Origin: Bacteroidota bacterium
GTDB taxonomy: Bacteria; Bacteroidota; Ignavibacteria; Kapaibacteriales; DASPKH01
Length of the DNA: 64,000 bases
NCBI GenBank assembly: GCA_040386315.1
Contig: JAZKFS010000001.1
Coordinates: forward strand, 24,099-88,098
Direction: 5' to 3'
The notes beneath the pieces are model-generated. The model saw only the letters and a list, made by a program, of their open reading frames with translations. It did not search any database and was not told the DNA's origin. Below, piece by piece: positions 6,159 to 14,649 of the stretch. A program made the position numbers and the translations under genes. Within the stretch, counting starts at the first letter, position 1. Every line of letters begins with the position of its first letter.

Positions 6159-6200
6159 TTTTTAAAAAGTATATTTCTCGACGTACTTTTTCTATTTATT

Positions 6201-6310
6201 ACCTTCCCAAAATCATTTTTTGCCTTCCCAAAATCATTTTTTGCCTTCCCAAAATCGTTTTTTGCCTTCCCAGAATCATTCCGGGACTTCCCAAAATCAT
6301 TCCGGGAAAG
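6201..6310. repeat. Five tandem copies of a 21-bp direct repeat (consensus CCTTCCCAAAATCATTTTTTG), the last two diverging to ...ATCATTCCGGGA
   Basis: Read directly from the sequence. The repeat lies just downstream of the ruvC stop and generates the spurious 76-aa ORF 6104..6334. Confidence 0.9.
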
Positions 6311-6430
6311 TCTTTTAAAAAGATCGGAGCATAAAAAAGGGTAGAATATTCCCGCCTTTTTAAAATCCTGCCCTTTCCGCCTGTGTAATGATAAATCTTT
6401 GGTTTTTAATGGAGTTTTTAAAAAATAGGA

Positions 6431-6519
6431 TTGTCATTCTGAGCATAGCGAAGAATCTAGGCCGGAATGGATAAACGCGAACTGCTGACGTAGATCCTTC
6501 GCTATGCTCAGGATGACAG
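6431..6519. repeat. Palindromic MITE-like element, copy 1 (TGTCATTCTGAGC...GCTCAGGATGACA hairpin family)
   Basis: A near-perfect inverted repeat: tgtcattctgagcatagcgaag...cttcgctatgctcaggatgaca. It has a conserved central core, AACGCGAACTGCTGACG. A partial copy (ccggacaagccggaatgacag) sits at 6556-6580. Confidence 0.85.
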
Positions 6520-6668
6520 ATATGGAATTTAATGCTTTGCCCTGTTTAAAAGAAAGATTCCGGACAAGCCGGAATGACAGAGTTTTGGAATGATTTTTAA
6601 AATCCCCCGCACTTTGGTAAATTGCCACCGCTACGACTTACACACCATACAAATAATTATAAAAGAAA

Positions 6669-9425
6669 ATGGCACTCAGCTGGAATGAAATAAAAGACCG
6701 CGCCCTCCATTTTTCAAAGGAATGGGCGAATACCTCAAATGAAGAAGCCGATGCAAAACCTTTTCTCGTTGAATTTTTTAATGTGTTCGGTATTTCCAGC
6801 CGGAAGGTGTCCACATTTGAGCATCGGGTAAAGAAACTCGACGATAAGGACGGCTATATAGACCTGCTGTGGAAGGGTACGATCCTTATTGAAATGAAAA
6901 GCCGGGGCAAGAACCTCGATAAAGCGTTCCAGCAGGCGAAGGACTATCTGCACGGCTTGAAACAGCATGAATTGCCCAAGTATATCCTTGTGTCGGACTT
7001 TGAAAAATTCCGGCTCACCGACCTTGAGGAGGAGAAAACCGTAGAATTTACGCTCGCGGAGCTGGTACATAATGTGCAGCACTTCGGCTACCTGCTGGGC
7101 TATCAGAAAAAAGTGTACAAGGAGCAGGATCCCGCGAATATCAAGGCCGCCGAGCTGATGGGAAAACTCCACGATAGTTTAAAAAGTATCGGCTACGACG
7201 GGCATCCGCTGGAAGTATATCTGGTGCGGATACTTTTTTGCCTTTTTGCCGAAGATACCACGATTTTTAATAAGCAGCAGTTCCAGGACTATATCGAGCA
7301 GCGGACGGGCGAGGACGGCAGCGACCTCGCGGCGCGTTTGCAGGAACTCTTCCAGGTGCTGAATACGGAAAAGGAGCGCCGTTTTAAAAACCTGGACGAG
7401 CAGCTGGCGGACTTTCCCTATGTGAACGGGAAATTATTCGAGGAAATACTGCCCACGGCGAGTTTTGACGCGCAGATGAGGCAGGCGCTGCTGAATTGCT
7501 GCTATATAGACTGGAGCAAAATCTCCCCCGCTATTTTCGGCTCCATGTTCCAGAGCGTGATGAACCCCGTCGAGCGGCGCAATCTCGGCGCGCACTACAC
7601 CAGCGAGACCAATATTTTAAAACTGATAAAGCCGCTTTTCCTCGATGAGCTGTGGCGGGAATTTGAGCTTTTAAAAAACAACAGGAACAAGCTCCCGGAA
7701 TTCCATAAAAAGCTCTCGGAGCTGGCCTTCCTCGACCCCGCGTGCGGCTGCGGCAATTTCCTCGTCATCACCTACCGCGAGCTGCGCCTGCTGGAAATAG
7801 AAATCCTGCGCGCCATGCTCAAAAGCGACCAGATAATCGCGGACGTGAGCGCATTTATCCGCCTCGACGTGGACAGGTTTTACGGCATAGAGTACGAGGA
7901 GTTTCCGGCGCGGATAGCGGAGGTGGCGATGTGGCTGATAGACCACCAGATGAATATGCTCATCAGCAACGAATTCGGGCAGTACTTCGCGCGGCTTCCT
8001 TTAAAAAAGGCGGCAAATATCACGCACGGTAACGCCCTGCGGCTGGATTGGGAAAGTATTGTGCCGAAGGATAAATTGTCGTTTATTCTGGGTAATCCGC
8101 CGTTTATTGGTTTTAAATTGCAGAATCAACAACAAAAAATTGATTTACAATGTGCTTTTGATAATACTCTAAACGTGGGTGTGCTTGATTATGTAACTGG
8201 TTGGTATATAAAAGCTGCTAAATACATTCAAGGTACGAATATTAAAGTTGGTTTAGTCTCCACAAATTCAATTGTACAAGGTGAACAAGTTAGTATTTTG
8301 TGGAATTCTTTAATAAATAAACATAATCTAAAAATTCACTTTGCGCATCGAACCTTTAAATGGAGTAATGAGGCAAAGGGTAATGCTGCCGTGTATTGTG
8401 TAATTATTGGCTTTGCAAATTTTGATACTCAAAACAAATCAATTTTTGAATATGAAGACATTAAAGGAGAAGCACATGAATTAAAAGTAAAGAATATTAA
8501 TCCTTATTTAGTTGATGCGAAGAATTTATTTATTGAAAAGCAATCTACTCCGATATGTAAAGCTCCTAAAATGAATTTGGCAAATTTGGCTTACGATTAC
8601 GGTTATTTAACTTTTACAAAAGAAGAAAAAGAAGAATTTCTTTTAAAAGAACCAAAGTCAGATAAATATATTAAGCCTGTAGTTTCTGCATATGAGTTTT
8701 TAAATAACAAAGAAAGATGGTGTCTTTGGTTAGTAGATGCTGATCCTAATGAAATCAAAAGAATGCCCGAGATTTTAAAAAGATTAGAATTAGTAGCGCA
8801 GAATAGAATTAAAAGTACAAGACCGCAAACTTTTAAAGGAGCTACAACACCAGGACTATTCGCTGAGATAAGACAACCGAAAGGTAATTATTTAGCTTTT
8901 CCAATTACAAGTTCTGAGAATCGAAATTATATTCCTATCGGCTTTTTTACAAGTGATTATATAACAAGTGCTGGAATTCACGTAATACCAAATGCTAATT
9001 TTTATCATTTTGGTGTTTTAACTTCAGCTATGCATATGGCTTGGGTTAGAAACATTTGCGGTCGTATGAAAAGTGATTTCAGATATTCAAATACTATCGT
9101 CTACAACAACTACCCGTGGCCGGAAACCCCGAGCGAGAAGCAGAAAGAAGCCATAGAGCGAGCAGCGCAGCGGGTATTGGACGTACGGGCGGAGTTTCCG
9201 GGCAGCTCGCTGGCGGACCTGTACGACCCGCTCACCATGCCGCCCGCCCTCGTCAGGGCGCACCGCGACCTGGACCGCGCCGTTGACCTCGCCTACCGCC
9301 CCCAGCCCTTCACCTCCGAGGCCCACAGGATGGAATATTTGTTTGAACTCTACGAAAAATACACGGCGAACCTCTTCACGGAGGAAAAGAAGAAGAAGGG
9401 GCGGAAAAAGGATGTGGCGGAATGA
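6669..9425 (+). CDS. Type IIL (MmeI-family) restriction-modification enzyme: PD-ExK endonuclease + gamma-class N6-adenine methyltransferase + target recognition domain in one 918-aa polypeptide
   Basis: The N-terminus MALSWNEIKDRALHFSKEWANTSNEEADAKPFLVEFFNVFGIS is typical of MmeI-like enzymes. The nuclease motif is D...LIEMKSRGK (D-ExK). The methyltransferase motif I is FLDPACGCGNFLV and motif IV is ILGNPPFIGF (NPPF). At 918 aa the size matches MmeI (919 aa). Confidence 0.85.
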   Translation: MALSWNEIKDRALHFSKEWANTSNEEADAKPFLVEFFNVFGISSRKVSTFEHRVKKLDDKDGYIDLLWKGTILIEMKSRGKNLDKAFQQAKDYLHGLKQHELPKYILVSDFEKFRLTDLEEEKTVEFTLAELVHNVQHFGYLLGYQKKVYKEQDPANIKAAELMGKLHDSLKSIGYDGHPLEVYLVRILFCLFAEDTTIFNKQQFQDYIEQRTGEDGSDLAARLQELFQVLNTEKERRFKNLDEQLADFPYVNGKLFEEILPTASFDAQMRQALLNCCYIDWSKISPAIFGSMFQSVMNPVERRNLGAHYTSETNILKLIKPLFLDELWREFELLKNNRNKLPEFHKKLSELAFLDPACGCGNFLVITYRELRLLEIEILRAMLKSDQIIADVSAFIRLDVDRFYGIEYEEFPARIAEVAMWLIDHQMNMLISNEFGQYFARLPLKKAANITHGNALRLDWESIVPKDKLSFILGNPPFIGFKLQNQQQKIDLQCAFDNTLNVGVLDYVTGWYIKAAKYIQGTNIKVGLVSTNSIVQGEQVSILWNSLINKHNLKIHFAHRTFKWSNEAKGNAAVYCVIIGFANFDTQNKSIFEYEDIKGEAHELKVKNINPYLVDAKNLFIEKQSTPICKAPKMNLANLAYDYGYLTFTKEEKEEFLLKEPKSDKYIKPVVSAYEFLNNKERWCLWLVDADPNEIKRMPEILKRLELVAQNRIKSTRPQTFKGATTPGLFAEIRQPKGNYLAFPITSSENRNYIPIGFFTSDYITSAGIHVIPNANFYHFGVLTSAMHMAWVRNICGRMKSDFRYSNTIVYNNYPWPETPSEKQKEAIERAAQRVLDVRAEFPGSSLADLYDPLTMPPALVRAHRDLDRAVDLAYRPQPFTSEAHRMEYLFELYEKYTANLFTEEKKKKGRKKDVAE

Positions 9426-9435
9426 TAATATTTAT

Positions 9436-9579
9436 TTGTCATTCCCCTGAAAAGGGGAATCAACGTTGGTTGGACGCGTCAGGATACAATTCTCGTTTTA
9501 AAAACAGCGCTTTTAAAATGTCATAACATCATTTTTCAACTTCTTCTGACGTTGATTCCCCTTTTCAGGGGAATGACAG
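9436..9579. repeat. Palindromic MITE-like element, copy 2 (longer variant; TGTCATTCCCCTGAAAAGGGGAATC...GATTCCCCTTTTCAGGGGAATGACA)
   Basis: It has the same terminal TGTCATTC / GAATGACA inverted repeats and the internal AACTTCTTCTGACG core as the other copies. Confidence 0.8.
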
Positions 9580-9600
9580 ATGTAAAAAACAACCACTACA

Positions 9601-9689
9601 TTGTCATTCTGAGCATCGCGAAGAATCCACGTTGGAATGACTGAACGCGAACTTTTGCCGTAGATTCTTCGCTCCGCTCAGAATGACAA
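9601..9689. repeat. Palindromic MITE-like element, copy 3
   Basis: ttgtcattctgagcatcgcgaagaatc...gattcttcgctccgctcagaatgacaa, with the central GAACGCGAACTTTTGCCG core. Confidence 0.85.
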
Positions 9690-9713: not shown

Positions 9714-9840
9714 AAAAATCCCCTCCTCGGAGGGGTGCCCATCGGGCGGGGTGGGTTCGCGTTGGATGGTCGCGCGATTGCTGACGATTGCTACTGTGAG
9801 CCCACCCCGGCCTGCGGCCACCCCTCCGGGGAGGGGATTT
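9714..9840. repeat. GC-rich long imperfect hairpin (aatcccctcctcggaggggtg ... cacccctccggggaggggatt)
   Basis: The terminal inverted repeats are about 20 bp. The composition is strikingly GC-rich relative to the flanks. The hairpin sits in the intergenic region between the MmeI-like gene and ispH. Confidence 0.7.
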
Positions 9841-9844
9841 TAAA

Positions 9845-12504: not shown

Positions 12505-14649
12505 ATGAAAAAACATTTTCAGACATTTCTTGCGTGCGGACTTCTTACTGCAAGTGCTCTGCCGCTCTTTGCGCAGGTACAGATCGCCCCGCCAAGCGGA
12601 AATCCGCATGGAGTAAAAGGAACAGCGACGATTTTAAAATCAAAAGTGAACACGCTGGCTGCTCCCAATGCAACGATCTACAGCCACGGCGACCCGACTG
12701 ACGAAGAGCAATATACGCTAGAACTGATCAACCGCGCCCGCGCAAACCCGACAGAAGAAGGAATCCGCCTTGCCAATACAACAGACCCGGATGTAACTTC
12801 TTCCTATCAGTATTTCAATATCAATACAAATACGGTAAAAACGCAGTTCGCCGGGTATCCATCACGTCCGCCACTTGCTTTTAATGAAAAGCTGATCTCA
12901 GCCGCGCGCAAGCATTCGCAATGGATGAAGGACAATAATACACAAAGCCACACCGGCGCTAACGGCACGTCTCCTTTTCAAAGAATGAATAACGAAGGAT
13001 ACACCGGCTGGTCAAATGCAGGCGAAAATGTGGCTGCATACGCGCGCAGCCTCTGGCATGGGCATGCGGGATTTAACGTGGACTGGGGCACACAAAACCA
13101 GATCGATCTCGGCCACCGCGAAAATATCATGAATTTTAAAAACTTCACCTACACAGAGATCGGTGTTGGGATTATTCATGCCAGCGGCGGCGGCAATCAG
13201 GTCGGGCCAATGATCATCACGCATGACTTTGGCAGACGCGCAGATTATTTCCTGACAGGAGTAGTTTTTAAAGACAATAATAATAACGGTTTCTATGATG
13301 TCGGCGAAGGCGTTTCGGGCGTGACTGTTACACCATCGAAAGGTACATTTTACGCCATTACATCAAGCTCCGGCGGCTACGCAATTCCTATGACAAATGT
13401 CAGCGGTCCTGTCAGCGTAACGGCATCCGGCACGGGAATTGGCGGAAGCGCAACCAAAAACGTATCATTTTCCGGTGAAAATGTAAAACTGGATTTCACT
13501 TCTGCCCTGCCGGGAAATGTTTCGCTCATCTCTCCTGCAAATGAAGAGCTTTTAAAAGCGGATTCGGTAAAATTCTCGTGGATGAAAAGCGCGAATGTAT
13601 CAAAATACTGGTTTGAGCTTTCCGAAAAACCGGATTTCACAACAGTTGTAAAACGTGATTCGACACTCAGCGACACAACATTTCCTTTTAAAAACCTCAC
13701 TAACGGCAAAACATATTTTTGGCGAGTAAAAGCTAAGACTACAGCCGGCTGGGGCGATTTCTCCGAAGCTAATTCATTCACGGTTGAGATCATTCCTGAT
13801 ATGGTTGAATTATCATATCCTGCTAACTTCATCGATGTCGGCACGCAAACCCGCATTGGCTGGTACAAACAGGCAGGCGCTACAAAATACTGGTATGAAT
13901 ATTCCACCGATGAATTCTTTTTGGAAAATGTCACGAGCGATACAAATACGAGCGACACGACAGCGCTTTTAAAAGCGTTAGAGCCCGGCATAAGTTACTT
14001 CTGGCACGTCAAAGCATCGAACGGCACATATTGGGGTGAGTTCTCTGAAACACGTTCGTTTATTACGCAGTTGACGCTTCCGGCGCAGGTGGAGTTGATT
14101 TCACCTGAGGATGGAACTCTAGATTTATTAGATTTAAGGTTTAAATGGATAGCAATTCCAGACGCAAACTTTTATGAACTAGAAGTTTCTGAAGATTCTA
14201 CTTTTACAAATATAGTTTTTCGGGATAGTACAATAACTCAGAATGAAATTGGTGAATCTACTTTTGGTACAGGAACCGGAGCAAGGTATTTTTGGCATGT
14301 CCGTGCAAAAAATCTTGATGGTTGGGGTGAATATAGCCCAACATGGCAATTTACGGTACATGGACTATCAGTATACGAAAACGCAGCATCCAAATTCAAA
14401 CTCGAAAATTCCCCAAATCCTTTTGAAAAAGCAACAGCAATCAAATTCACGCTTTTAAAAGACCAGAATGTGACACTCCGCATTTACAATGCAGCCGGGC
14501 AGGAAGTTTTTAAAAGCGTTTTAAAAGACGCTCACGAAGGCGAAAATTCCTTCACATGGCATGCCTCCGGCTTTGAGAACGGCGTCTATTATTACGAAAT
14601 TGAAGCGGACAATATGAAGGGAATTCGCCCTATGGTCCTGGTGAAATAA
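12505..14649 (+). CDS. Secreted CAP/SCP (PR-1-like) domain protein with four fibronectin-III-like repeats and a T9SS C-terminal sorting domain
   Basis: A signal peptide is present. The CAP-like region contains EEQYTLELINRARANP. There are four repeats of about 90 aa with a W..S.....YFW(R/H)VKA..GWG(D/E)FSE pattern. The C-terminus (NSPNPFEKATAIKFTLLKDQNVTLRIYNAAGQEV) is a Por-secretion tail. Confidence 0.75.
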   Translation: MKKHFQTFLACGLLTASALPLFAQVQIAPPSGNPHGVKGTATILKSKVNTLAAPNATIYSHGDPTDEEQYTLELINRARANPTEEGIRLANTTDPDVTSSYQYFNINTNTVKTQFAGYPSRPPLAFNEKLISAARKHSQWMKDNNTQSHTGANGTSPFQRMNNEGYTGWSNAGENVAAYARSLWHGHAGFNVDWGTQNQIDLGHRENIMNFKNFTYTEIGVGIIHASGGGNQVGPMIITHDFGRRADYFLTGVVFKDNNNNGFYDVGEGVSGVTVTPSKGTFYAITSSSGGYAIPMTNVSGPVSVTASGTGIGGSATKNVSFSGENVKLDFTSALPGNVSLISPANEELLKADSVKFSWMKSANVSKYWFELSEKPDFTTVVKRDSTLSDTTFPFKNLTNGKTYFWRVKAKTTAGWGDFSEANSFTVEIIPDMVELSYPANFIDVGTQTRIGWYKQAGATKYWYEYSTDEFFLENVTSDTNTSDTTALLKALEPGISYFWHVKASNGTYWGEFSETRSFITQLTLPAQVELISPEDGTLDLLDLRFKWIAIPDANFYELEVSEDSTFTNIVFRDSTITQNEIGESTFGTGTGARYFWHVRAKNLDGWGEYSPTWQFTVHGLSVYENAASKFKLENSPNPFEKATAIKFTLLKDQNVTLRIYNAAGQEVFKSVLKDAHEGENSFTWHASGFENGVYYYEIEADNMKGIRPMVLVK

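What the first reader, a model, noticed from the sequence alone, without database searches (positions are those of the whole stretch)
8050..9095. Compositional mosaic inside the MmeI-family RM gene: AT-rich C-terminal methyltransferase/TRD segment embedded between GC-rich flanks
Codon and base composition changes abruptly around 8050 (from GC-rich, e.g. ccgcgtgcggctgcggcaatttcctcgtc, to AT-rich, e.g. ggttttaaattgcagaatcaacaacaaaaaattgatttacaa). It reverts around 9095 (ctacaacaactacccgtggccggaaaccccgagcg). The AT-rich block corresponds to the region that in MmeI-family enzymes determines target specificity. The pattern is what recombinational swapping of a specificity module from a lower-GC donor would leave, implying a recent change of recognition sequence.
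Basis: seen in the sequence. Interest (0 to 1): 0.55.

Follow-up and report, generated by a model that had tools for sequence, protein, structure and literature searches.

The report
Mosaic MmeI-family restriction enzyme gene
An intact single-protein restriction-modification gene carries an AT-rich, roughly 1-kb DNA-recognition cassette inside a GC-rich backbone, an extreme example of a known way these enzymes exchange target specificity by recombination.

Summary
ORF 6669-9425 (+) is a complete MmeI-family (Type IIL) RM gene. Third-codon-position GC is 0.69 (aa 1-460), 0.20 (aa 461-809) and 0.82 (aa 810-918), while GC2 stays flat. The lowest-GC 1046-nt stretch and the highest-GC 330-nt stretch of the 64-kb window lie side by side in this gene.

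The AT-rich block (about nt 8106-9095) runs from MTase motif IV (NPPF) to just after the last TRD contact residue. It contains every position that contacts bases in the MmeI-DNA structure. Both junctions sit in highly conserved motifs.

Across about 120 homologues, backbone (N+C) and block are phylogenetically uncoupled. Near-identical backbones carry replaced blocks with the same breakpoints. The window's block type sits on three unrelated backbones. An identical independent Logan contig argues against assembly chimerism, as does the same pattern in an isolate genome.

"Recent change of specificity" is not shown: no relative exceeds 87% (backbone) or 79% (block), and synonymous sites are saturated. 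Block AT-richness is family-wide, so it is weak evidence for a low-GC donor. Natural TRD exchange in this family was proposed in 2009, so this is a striking new member of a known kind.

The parts
6669..9425 (+). Complete MmeI-family (Type IIL) restriction-modification gene, 918 aa
   Evidence: Pfam MmeI_N, MmeI_hel, MmeI_Mtase, MmeI_TRD and MmeI_C all hit, E 1e-26 to 8e-95. Colinear with MmeI structure 5HR4 over residues 1-914, 1151 bits, 57% identity. Nuclease D65/E75/K77, motif I and NPPF are intact.
6669..8042 (+). GC-rich backbone, N part: PD-(D/E)XK nuclease, helical spacer and the AdoMet-binding half of the MTase domain (aa 1-458)
   Evidence: GC 0.51, GC3 0.69. About 85% aa identity to more than 100 homologues, in a flat distribution. 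Its distances co-vary with the C part, Mantel r 0.29-0.38, p=0.002.
8043..8105 (+). 5' junction zone, inside the conserved LDWE...LSFILGNPPF (motif IV) stretch
   Evidence: Codon-by-codon GC3 is mixed over aa 459-478, and the last GC-type codons are CCG CCG of NPPF. The ML breakpoint is codon 472. Recombination breakpoints of near-identical family pairs fall at aa 452-478.
8106..9095 (+). AT-rich recognition cassette: post-motif-IV minor-groove loop, MTase motifs V-VIII and the whole TRD (aa 480-809)
   Evidence: GC 0.304, GC3 about 0.19. Equivalents of all MmeI base-contact residues map to nt 8112-9083. Closest relatives are L002/P0002 (79%) and L006/P0003 (76%), z=3.6-4.2 above the family mean.
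9096..9425 (+). GC-rich backbone, C part: the conserved IVYNNYPWP motif (last residues of the TRD) and the C-terminal helical bundle (aa 810-918). The 3' junction lies at nt 9095/9096.
   Evidence: The switch ...AAT ACT | ATC GTC TAC AAC AAC TAC CCG TGG CCG is sharp. GC 0.606, GC3 0.82. This is the highest-GC 330-nt stretch of the window.
6430..6518 (+). 89-nt palindromic element upstream of the gene. It may mark one limit of the inserted gene; whether it belongs to the feature is uncertain.
   Evidence: Direct-repeat family D2 and inverted repeat I5. Together with its downstream partner it is the only copy in the 64-kb window, with 0 expected by chance.
9600..9688 (+). Second copy of the 89-nt palindromic element downstream of the gene, 83% identical and in the same orientation. 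Whether it belongs to the feature is uncertain.

Best explanation
The gene encodes an apparently functional single-chain MmeI-type enzyme whose coding sequence is a recombinant of two lineages. The GC-rich backbone comprises the nuclease, the helical spacer, the AdoMet-binding half of the methyltransferase and the C-terminal helical bundle. The AT-rich cassette of about 1.0 kb runs from just after the NPPF catalytic motif to just after the last DNA-contacting TRD residue.

The cassette carries every residue that reads the target bases, including the methyltransferase minor-groove loop. Replacing it changes the specificity of cleavage and methylation together, without breaking co-adapted contacts. 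The exchange is a double crossover whose ends lie in two of the most conserved motifs of the family: LGNPPFIG, and RYSxxIVYNN(Y/F)PWP.

The whole gene is itself foreign to its present host, sitting alone between ruvC and ispH.

Shown: the composition step, the junction positions, the content of the cassette, the backbone/cassette uncoupling and the swaps in related genes.

Inferred: that this particular gene acquired its cassette by such a swap, the direction of the swap, and its timing.

Predicted from published rules: the recognition site differs from MmeI's TCCRAC. It has G at position 6 (K..D at MmeI 806/808) and a purine at position 4 (R at 810 with G at 774). It matches the site of the L002 and L006 enzymes except at position 6.
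For: - Composition: GC3 0.69 / 0.20 / 0.82 with flat GC2. LRT 241 against at most 39 in other ORFs and at most 18 in shuffles.
- The difference is regional. GC3 is equal at conserved and variable sites within each segment, and aa 501-620 are conserved yet AT-rich. It survives control for amino-acid class.
- The junctions lie inside conserved motifs.
- All MmeI base contacts (K487, S488, K489, Y642, K645, A723, F737, Y738, E751, T752, N773, A774, L805, E806, R808, R810; PMC4833311) map to query aa 482-805, inside the cassette.
- Mantel tests: N1-N2 0.34, N-C 0.29-0.38 and M1-M2 0.39, all p=0.002. N-M and M-C are about 0 and not significant.
- Family pairs with a near-identical backbone and a replaced cassette: L038/L046 have nt identity N 0.95, M 0.67, C 0.92. 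L026/L036 and L110/L114 behave likewise. Their breakpoints are at aa 452-478 and 788-851.
- Converse case: L098/L131 share a TRD at 97% nt identity, with N at 76% and C at 70%.
- The window, L002 and L006 are reciprocal nearest neighbours in the cassette (z 3.6-5.4). In N and C they rank only 7th to 75th of 119.
- The nearest cassette relative, L002, lies in a uniformly low-GC gene and contig (GC 0.35).
- Not an assembly artefact: Logan contig SRR26324626_253408 is 100% identical over 6555-9463. Isolate genome Adhaeribacter rhizoryzae DK36 (L057) shows the same step, 0.60 / 0.24 / 0.69.
- The host is compositionally different from both parts, and the neighbours are housekeeping genes.
Against: - No donor or recipient is identifiable. 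The best backbone relative is 86-87% identical and the best cassette relative 77-79%. Four-fold sites are saturated in all comparisons. The swap in this gene's own history is therefore inferred from pattern, not seen.
- The cassette is AT-richer than the backbone in nearly all homologues: N>M2 in 77 of 82 and 30 of 36 genes, with no clear reverse case. It is also AT-richer than the host in 79 of 87 loci. This one-sidedness is not expected from random swaps. It suggests that a general force, or a biased source pool, contributes to the contrast.
- N-segment distances are nearly star-like (82-87%), which limits the power of the incongruence tests for this gene.
Confidence: 0.7

Rival explanations
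1. There was no swap in this gene's recent history. The contrast is kept up by a segment-specific compositional regime that acts across the family. The fast-evolving recognition module drifts to the AT-rich mutational equilibrium, for example through weaker selection on codon usage or interference from diversifying selection. Alternatively, the conserved backbone is kept GC-richer by GC-biased gene conversion between homologues.
For: - The direction of the offset is the same almost everywhere. N>M2 holds in 77 of 82 genes for GC4 and 78 of 82 for C-ending NNY codons, and in 30 of 36 genes of a second sample.
- TRD GC3 is below host GC3 in 79 of 87 loci, while the backbone is about equal to the host at +0.03 to +0.04.
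- Composition breakpoints recur at similar positions in many homologues.
- L006 shows the same strong step, although its synonymous sites are saturated relative to the window.
Against: - The step size here (0.7-0.8 to 0.2 within two codons at the 3' junction) is far beyond the family mean offset of about 0.1-0.15.
- There is no site-level link between conservation and GC3, and the conserved MTase motifs V-VIII are AT-rich too.
- Actual cassette replacements with the same breakpoints are directly visible in the family.
- Backbone nt identity between homologues is about 70-76%. This is too low for frequent homologous gene conversion.
- The backbone here is far above host GC3, unlike the family norm.
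Confidence: 0.2
2. The feature is a metagenome assembly chimera. Two different MmeI-family genes from co-occurring organisms, one GC-rich and one AT-rich, were joined at shared conserved motifs.
For: The window comes from a MAG (P0001 is named 'MAG: Bacteroidota bacterium'). The family is abundant in metagenomes (over 8000 hits). Many contigs break or genes are split near the 5' junction.
Against: - An independent k=31 Logan contig is identical across both junctions.
- The reading frame is preserved and all catalytic motifs are intact.
- The 3' switch occurs within two codons. Any 31-mer spanning it already mixes AT-type and GC-type codons, so it must exist in reads (inference).
- The same step pattern occurs in another sample (L006) and in an isolate genome (L057).
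- Genes this different in codon usage are very unlikely to share two exact seeds of 30 nt or more.
Confidence: 0.04
3. The gene is part of a programmed specificity-switching locus (a shufflon or phase-variable system), in which alternative recognition cassettes are exchanged by a site-specific recombinase. The AT-rich block would be one of several resident cassettes.
For: The breakpoints are conserved motifs that recur across the family. Gene disruptions cluster near the 5' junction in L089, L090 and L091.
Against: - No second MmeI-like fragment, silent cassette, invertase or integrase lies near the gene. The neighbours are ruvC, yebC, ispH and cmk.
- No long inverted repeats lie inside the gene.
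- The contexts of L089, L090, L091 and L093 show no spare cassettes.
- The clustering of split ORFs is largely explained by where the next in-frame Met lies, which is a selection bias.
Confidence: 0.02

Closest known systems
MmeI (Methylophilus methylotrophus), Type IIL RM enzyme, PDB 5HR4
   Same: It has the same five-domain order and is colinear over 914 residues at 57% identity. Nuclease D/E/K, motif I and NPPF are conserved. The base-contact positions align without gaps.
   Different: Contact residues differ at nearly all specificity positions: F-K-L for K487-S488-K489, L/L for Y642/K645, R for A723, A/E for F737/Y738, I for E751, A/G for N773/A774, and K..D for E806..R808. The target is therefore not TCCRAC. 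I did not examine the composition of the MmeI gene itself.
Natural TRD exchange proposed for the MmeI family (Microcystis aeruginosa PCC7806 IPF4888/IPF5080; Morgan & Luyten 2009, PMC2731914)
   Same: [quoted passage not shown] Equivalent pairs were found here: L038/L046, L026/L036, L110/L114 and L109/L112.
   Different: The window gene has no near-identical partner, so the case rests on composition and incongruence. The exchanged unit here is longer than the TRD. It begins at MTase motif IV and so carries the minor-groove loop along with the TRD. The 2009 paper does not mention a base-composition signature (the term 'GC content' has 0 occurrences).
Type I hsdS TRD recombination (Fuller-Pace 1984; Gubler 1992, as cited in PMC2731914) and Type IIB TRD reassortment (AloI/PpiI/TstI, Jurenaite-Urbanaviciene 2007, cited there)
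   Same: New specificities arise by recombining variable recognition modules between conserved flanking sequences.
   Different: In those systems a separate S subunit or half-site TRDs are exchanged. Here a single contiguous module inside a single-chain enzyme changes restriction and modification together.
Helicobacter pylori 'domain movement' in Type I/IIG methyltransferase genes (Furuta et al. 2014, PMC3983042)
   Same: Specificity changes by movement of TRD-coding sequence between homologous genes (title and abstract).
   Different: That is a different enzyme family studied within one species. No comparison was made here beyond the abstract.

Membership tests
MmeI family (Type IIL single-chain RM enzymes) | Five-domain architecture: N-terminal nuclease, helical spacer, gamma-class N6A MTase, TRD, C-terminal helical bundle | tested here: met
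   All five Pfam MmeI_* domains hit, in order, far above cut-off. Colinear phmmer alignment to 5HR4, 1151 bits.
MmeI family (Type IIL single-chain RM enzymes) | PD-(D/E)XK nuclease catalytic residues (MmeI D70, E80, K82) | tested here: met
   Query D65, E75 and K77 align to them.
MmeI family (Type IIL single-chain RM enzymes) | MTase motif I (F.DPACGCGNFL) and motif IV (NPPF) | tested here: met
   FLDPACGCGNFLV and GNPPFIG are present in the translation. NPPF is at aa 476-479.
MmeI family (Type IIL single-chain RM enzymes) | Stand-alone gene with no separate methyltransferase or specificity subunit | tested here: met
   The flanking genes are ruvC/yebC upstream and ispH/cmk downstream. No other RM gene lies within about 5 kb.
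MmeI family (Type IIL single-chain RM enzymes) | Cleavage about 20/18 nt from an asymmetric site, with methylation of one strand only | not testable with these tools
   This needs the purified enzyme or methylome data.
Recombinant (module-exchanged) RM specificity genes | Recognition module and backbone have different closest relatives or incongruent phylogenies | tested here: met
   Best N is L049, best M is L002 and best C is L075. The trio window/L002/L006 are nearest neighbours in M only. Mantel N-M is about 0, against N-C 0.29-0.38.
Recombinant (module-exchanged) RM specificity genes | A near-identical partner gene that differs only in the module (direct evidence of a recent swap) | tested here: not met
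   For the window gene, the best backbone relative is 86-87% identical and the best module relative 77-79%. The feature is met for other family members, for example L038/L046 and L026/L036.
Recombinant (module-exchanged) RM specificity genes | Breakpoints in conserved sequence flanking the variable module | tested here: met
   The junctions lie in LSFILGNPPFIG and RYSxxIVYNNYPWP. These match the pairwise recombination breakpoints at aa 452-478 and 788-851.

The most novel reading that the evidence does not exclude
The AT-richness of the recognition cassette is not incidental to one swap. It is a general, directional property of MmeI-family genes across phyla. The cassette is below host GC3 in 79 of 87 loci and is never clearly GC-richer than the backbone. 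The window gene is the most extreme case.

This could mean that specificity cassettes circulate as a shared, AT-rich, fast-turning-over mobile pool that moves independently of the enzyme backbones. Alternatively, a segment-specific mutation or selection regime keeps recognition modules at the AT-rich mutational equilibrium. Either way, it would give a sequence-only marker for the 'specificity unit' of single-chain RM enzymes.
Probability: 0.3. Interest if true: 0.55.

Novelty: new member of a known kind. Interest (0 to 1): 0.36.

Why it matters
The finding maps, from sequence alone, the natural exchange unit of an MmeI-type enzyme: motif IV loop plus MTase motifs V-VIII plus TRD, about 330 codons. 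That unit coincides with the full set of base-contacting residues in the crystal structure. This is practical guidance for engineering new specificities by cassette swapping rather than by point mutation.

It also gives a testable specificity prediction: the same site as the L002 and L006 enzymes, but with G instead of C at position 6.

The family-wide AT bias of the cassette, if confirmed, bears on how defence-system specificity modules move between bacterial lineages.

For genome annotation, the result is otherwise ordinary: an orphan, horizontally acquired RM gene.

Tried and rejected
1. I looked for a near-identical donor or recipient. Protein searches with the whole protein, the block alone and the N part alone found nothing above 87% (backbone) or 79% (block). 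'Recent' therefore could not be shown.
2. Four-fold-site identity was tried as a clock. It is saturated and dominated by shared composition, so it is uninformative.
3. A codon-optimality (Akashi-type) explanation is rejected. GC3 is the same at conserved and variable sites within each segment.
4. An amino-acid-composition artefact is rejected. GC4 and the C-fraction of NNY codons show the same step.
5. A conservation-driven explanation is rejected. MTase motifs V-VIII (aa 501-620) are as conserved as the backbone but are AT-rich.
6. A shufflon or phase-variation explanation found no support. There are no spare cassettes or recombinase nearby, and the neighbours are housekeeping genes. The cluster of roughly 429-aa M+C ORFs is mostly explained by the position of the next in-frame Met and by contig ends.
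7. An Rfam search of the gene and its flanks found no RNA family.
8. Assembly chimerism was considered and judged unlikely.
9. I did not run a structure prediction. The 57%-identical solved structure 5HR4 already gives residue-level mapping.
Full report
**Observation**

The ORF at 6669-9425 (+) encodes 918 aa. GC is 0.512 for 6669-8049, 0.311 for 8050-9095 and 0.606 for 9096-9425, against a window mean of 0.420.

The change is almost entirely at synonymous positions. GC3 is 0.685 / 0.198 / 0.817 for aa 1-460 / 461-809 / 810-918, while GC2 is 0.29 / 0.34 / 0.39. A two-breakpoint likelihood fit on GC3 gives codons 472 and 811 with LRT 241. Sixteen other long ORFs of the window reach at most 39, and 200 codon shuffles reach at most 18. 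The lowest-GC 1046-nt stretch of the window (start 8067) and the highest-GC 330-nt stretch (start 9091) are adjacent in this gene.

**What the gene is**

All five Pfam MmeI domains hit in order. The protein aligns colinearly with the MmeI crystal-structure chain 5HR4 (1151 bits, 57% identity). The nuclease residues (D65, E75, K77), motif I (FLDPACGCGNFLV) and motif IV (NPPF, aa 476-479) are intact.

The exact protein is recorded from an NCBI MAG named 'Bacteroidota bacterium'. The neighbours are housekeeping genes: recJ, an SF1 helicase, yebC and ruvC upstream, and ispH, cmk and a HAD hydrolase downstream. It is therefore a solitary RM gene.

Host ORFs have GC3 of 0.40 ± 0.11, and 0.44-0.57 for the eight nearest. 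Both the GC-rich parts and the AT-rich part are thus compositionally foreign to the host.

**Anatomy of the block**

The 3' junction is sharp: ...AAT ACT | ATC GTC TAC AAC AAC TAC CCG TGG CCG, between codons 809 and 810 (nt 9095/9096). It lies inside the conserved RYSxxIVYNNYPWP motif.

The 5' junction is a mixed zone over aa 459-478 (nt 8043-8105), inside LDWE...LSFILGNPPF.

In the MmeI-DNA structure, bases are contacted by K487, S488 and K489 of the MTase domain, just after NPPF. They are also contacted by TRD residues Y642, K645, A723, F737, Y738, E751, T752, N773, A774, L805, E806, R808 and R810 (PMC4833311). Their equivalents are query aa 482-805, or nt 8112-9083. The AT-rich block therefore brackets the complete set of base-reading residues, with only a few codons to spare at each end. 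It excludes the AdoMet-binding half of the MTase domain and the C-terminal helical bundle.

**Is it an artefact?**

- A Logan contig (SRR26324626_253408, 2909 nt) is 100% identical to window 6555-9463 and spans both junctions.
- The same strong step occurs in another sample: L006 has GC3 0.78 / 0.30 / 0.68.
- It also occurs in an isolate genome: L057, Adhaeribacter rhizoryzae DK36, has 0.60 / 0.24 / 0.69.
- Because the 3' switch occurs within two codons, any k-mer spanning it already mixes the two codon styles. This is my inference.

Assembly chimerism is therefore unlikely.

**Is it explained by constraint or amino-acid content?**

No. Within each segment, GC3 is the same at conserved and variable sites: 0.66 against 0.66 in N, and 0.20 against 0.13 in M. 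The conserved MTase motifs V-VIII (aa 501-620) are AT-rich. The step persists at four-fold sites and in NNY codons.

**Evidence for module exchange**

I collected 80 homologous loci from genomes, 36 distinct full-length genes from a second clade seeded with MmeI itself, and several contigs for the closest proteins.

- Segment distance matrices. Backbone parts co-vary with each other (N1-N2 0.34, N-C 0.29-0.38, p=0.002). The two halves of the block co-vary with each other (M1-M2 0.39, p=0.002). Backbone and block do not co-vary (-0.08 to 0.13, not significant).
- Pairs with a near-identical backbone and a replaced block. L038/L046 have nt identity N 0.95, M1 0.69, M2 0.66 and C 0.92. L026/L036, L110/L114, L040/L085 and L109/L112 behave likewise.
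- The converse case. L098/L131 share a TRD at 97% nt identity on backbones that are 70-76% identical.
- Breakpoints in these pairs fall into two classes. One has aa 452-478 with 788-851, which is the same unit as the window's block. The other has aa 578-635 with 779-862, which is the TRD only.
- The window gene itself. Together with L002 and L006 it forms a reciprocal nearest-neighbour trio in the block (76-82% identity, z 3.6-5.4). In N and C the three rank only 7th to 75th of 119. L002's N is 94.6% identical to L009's, and L006's C is 93.5% identical to L026's. One block type therefore sits on three unrelated backbones.
It is not met: the best hits are L049 for N, L002 for M and L075 for C.

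**What is not supported**

No donor or recipient can be named. Whole-protein, block-only and N-only searches of 5.8 billion proteins give at most 87% (backbone) and 79% (block). Four-fold sites are saturated in every comparison. A 'recent' change is therefore not demonstrated.

The block's AT-richness is also a family-wide, one-directional feature.
- N>M2 holds in 77 of 82 genes (GC4) and in 30 of 36 genes of the second clade.
- Relative to flanking host genes, the backbone is about equal to the host (+0.03 to +0.04). M1 is -0.05 and the TRD is -0.10, with 79 of 87 loci below the host.
- No gene has a block clearly GC-richer than its backbone.

Low GC is thus weak evidence about the donor. Either the pool of circulating cassettes is AT-rich and turns over faster than backbones, or some segment-specific regime pushes cassettes towards AT. 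The window gene is the extreme of this distribution, with the highest LRT of 83 genes. It is unusual in that its backbone also lies far above host GC3. This suggests the whole, possibly already mosaic, gene arrived recently from a GC-richer lineage.

**Specificity**

At every contact position the window enzyme equals the L002 and L006 enzymes: F-K-L, L/L, R, A/E, I/T, A/G and R810. The exceptions are MmeI 805/806/808, where it has M-K-D instead of L-E-R.

By the published covariation rules, K..D means G and E..R means C at position 6. R810 means a purine at position 4, with small residues at 774 giving R rather than G (PMC2731914 and PMC4833311). The site is therefore predicted to differ from that of its nearest cassette relatives only at position 6. 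That is a point-mutation type of change. The site also differs from TCCRAC at several positions. This is a prediction, not a result.

**Comparison with what is known**

[quoted passage not shown] They cited two Microcystis PCC7806 homologues that are 98.5% identical outside the TRD and 55% within it. Analogous exchange is classical for Type I hsdS and Type IIB enzymes (references).

The window gene is therefore a new and unusually clear member of a known kind. Three points are modestly new:
- The natural exchange unit can start at MTase motif IV, so that the minor-groove loop travels with the TRD.
- The composition contrast is very large.
- The cassette shows a family-wide AT bias. The 2009 family paper mentions neither GC content nor recombination. 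The engineering paper has no occurrence of 'GC content'.

**Verdict**

My confidence in a recombinant origin is 0.70. A segment-specific compositional regime as the main cause gets 0.20, assembly chimera 0.04 and a programmed switching locus 0.02. Interest is 0.36.

Noticed in passing
window 6430-6518 and 9600-9688: An 89-nt near-palindromic element (arms TGTCATTCTGAGCATAGCGAAGAATC..., 31-nt loop) occurs exactly twice in the 64-kb window. The two copies are 83% identical, in the same orientation, and bracket the MmeI gene. The 13-nt core TGTCATTCTGAGC also occurs within about 1 kb of the MmeI homologue in L009, L058, L083 and L085. It may be a REP/MITE-like element marking the insertion. There is no Rfam match.
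   Followed up: partly
window 6173-6298; 9434-9581; 9715-9841: The intergenic flanks of the gene are full of repeats. There is a 21-nt tandem repeat (ATTTTTTGCCTTCCCAAAATC, about 5 copies) upstream. Downstream there are two further long hairpins: 33-nt arms, 97% complementary, 82 nt apart; and 44-nt GC-rich arms, 84% complementary. The independent Logan contig ends at 6555 and 9463, next to these repeats.
   Followed up: no
window 24782-45119: A low-GC region (GC 0.33-0.41, GC3 about 0.28-0.33) encodes a large PKS/PUFA-synthase-like cluster. It includes a PPTase, a KS-AT-ACP protein (1422 aa), a 2361-aa KS plus triple-FabA protein, KR/DH proteins and an enoyl-reductase-like protein. Its composition is distinct from the rest of the window.
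   Followed up: partly
L089 6550-9290; L090 6625-9359; L091 20-1960: Three homologues are split into two ORFs by independent lesions, all within about 15 codons of the 5' junction. L089 has a 1-nt frameshift in FILG. L090 has a short deletion before LSYIIGNPPF. L091 has a TAA replacing the D of DWE. Several contigs also start or end there, for example L093. This may be partly selection bias from ORF calling, but it could reflect imprecise recombination or inactivation at the junction.
   Followed up: partly
L148-L158 (IMG/VR contigs): Eleven predicted viral contigs of 12-125 kb carry full-length homologues, up to 75% identical to the window protein. Most show the same mild dip in TRD GC3. (Pro)phages are therefore a plausible vehicle for the family.
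   Followed up: partly
window 12505-14649: A T9SS-sorted secreted protein (CAP, fn3 and Por_Secre_tail domains) has an internal stretch with GC3 0.18 at codons 532-646, against 0.49 elsewhere. Its LRT of 39 is the second-highest composition step among the window's long ORFs.
   Followed up: no
L002-L004 (P0002 loci): The closest cassette relative lies in a defence-gene neighbourhood: an HTH regulator, a BanI-like Type II REase, a C5 methyltransferase and, in L004, an HsdR_N-domain protein and a 1261-aa N6_Mtase/Eco57I-type protein. The identical MmeI gene appears in at least two different gene orders there, which suggests local rearrangement or mobility.
   Followed up: no
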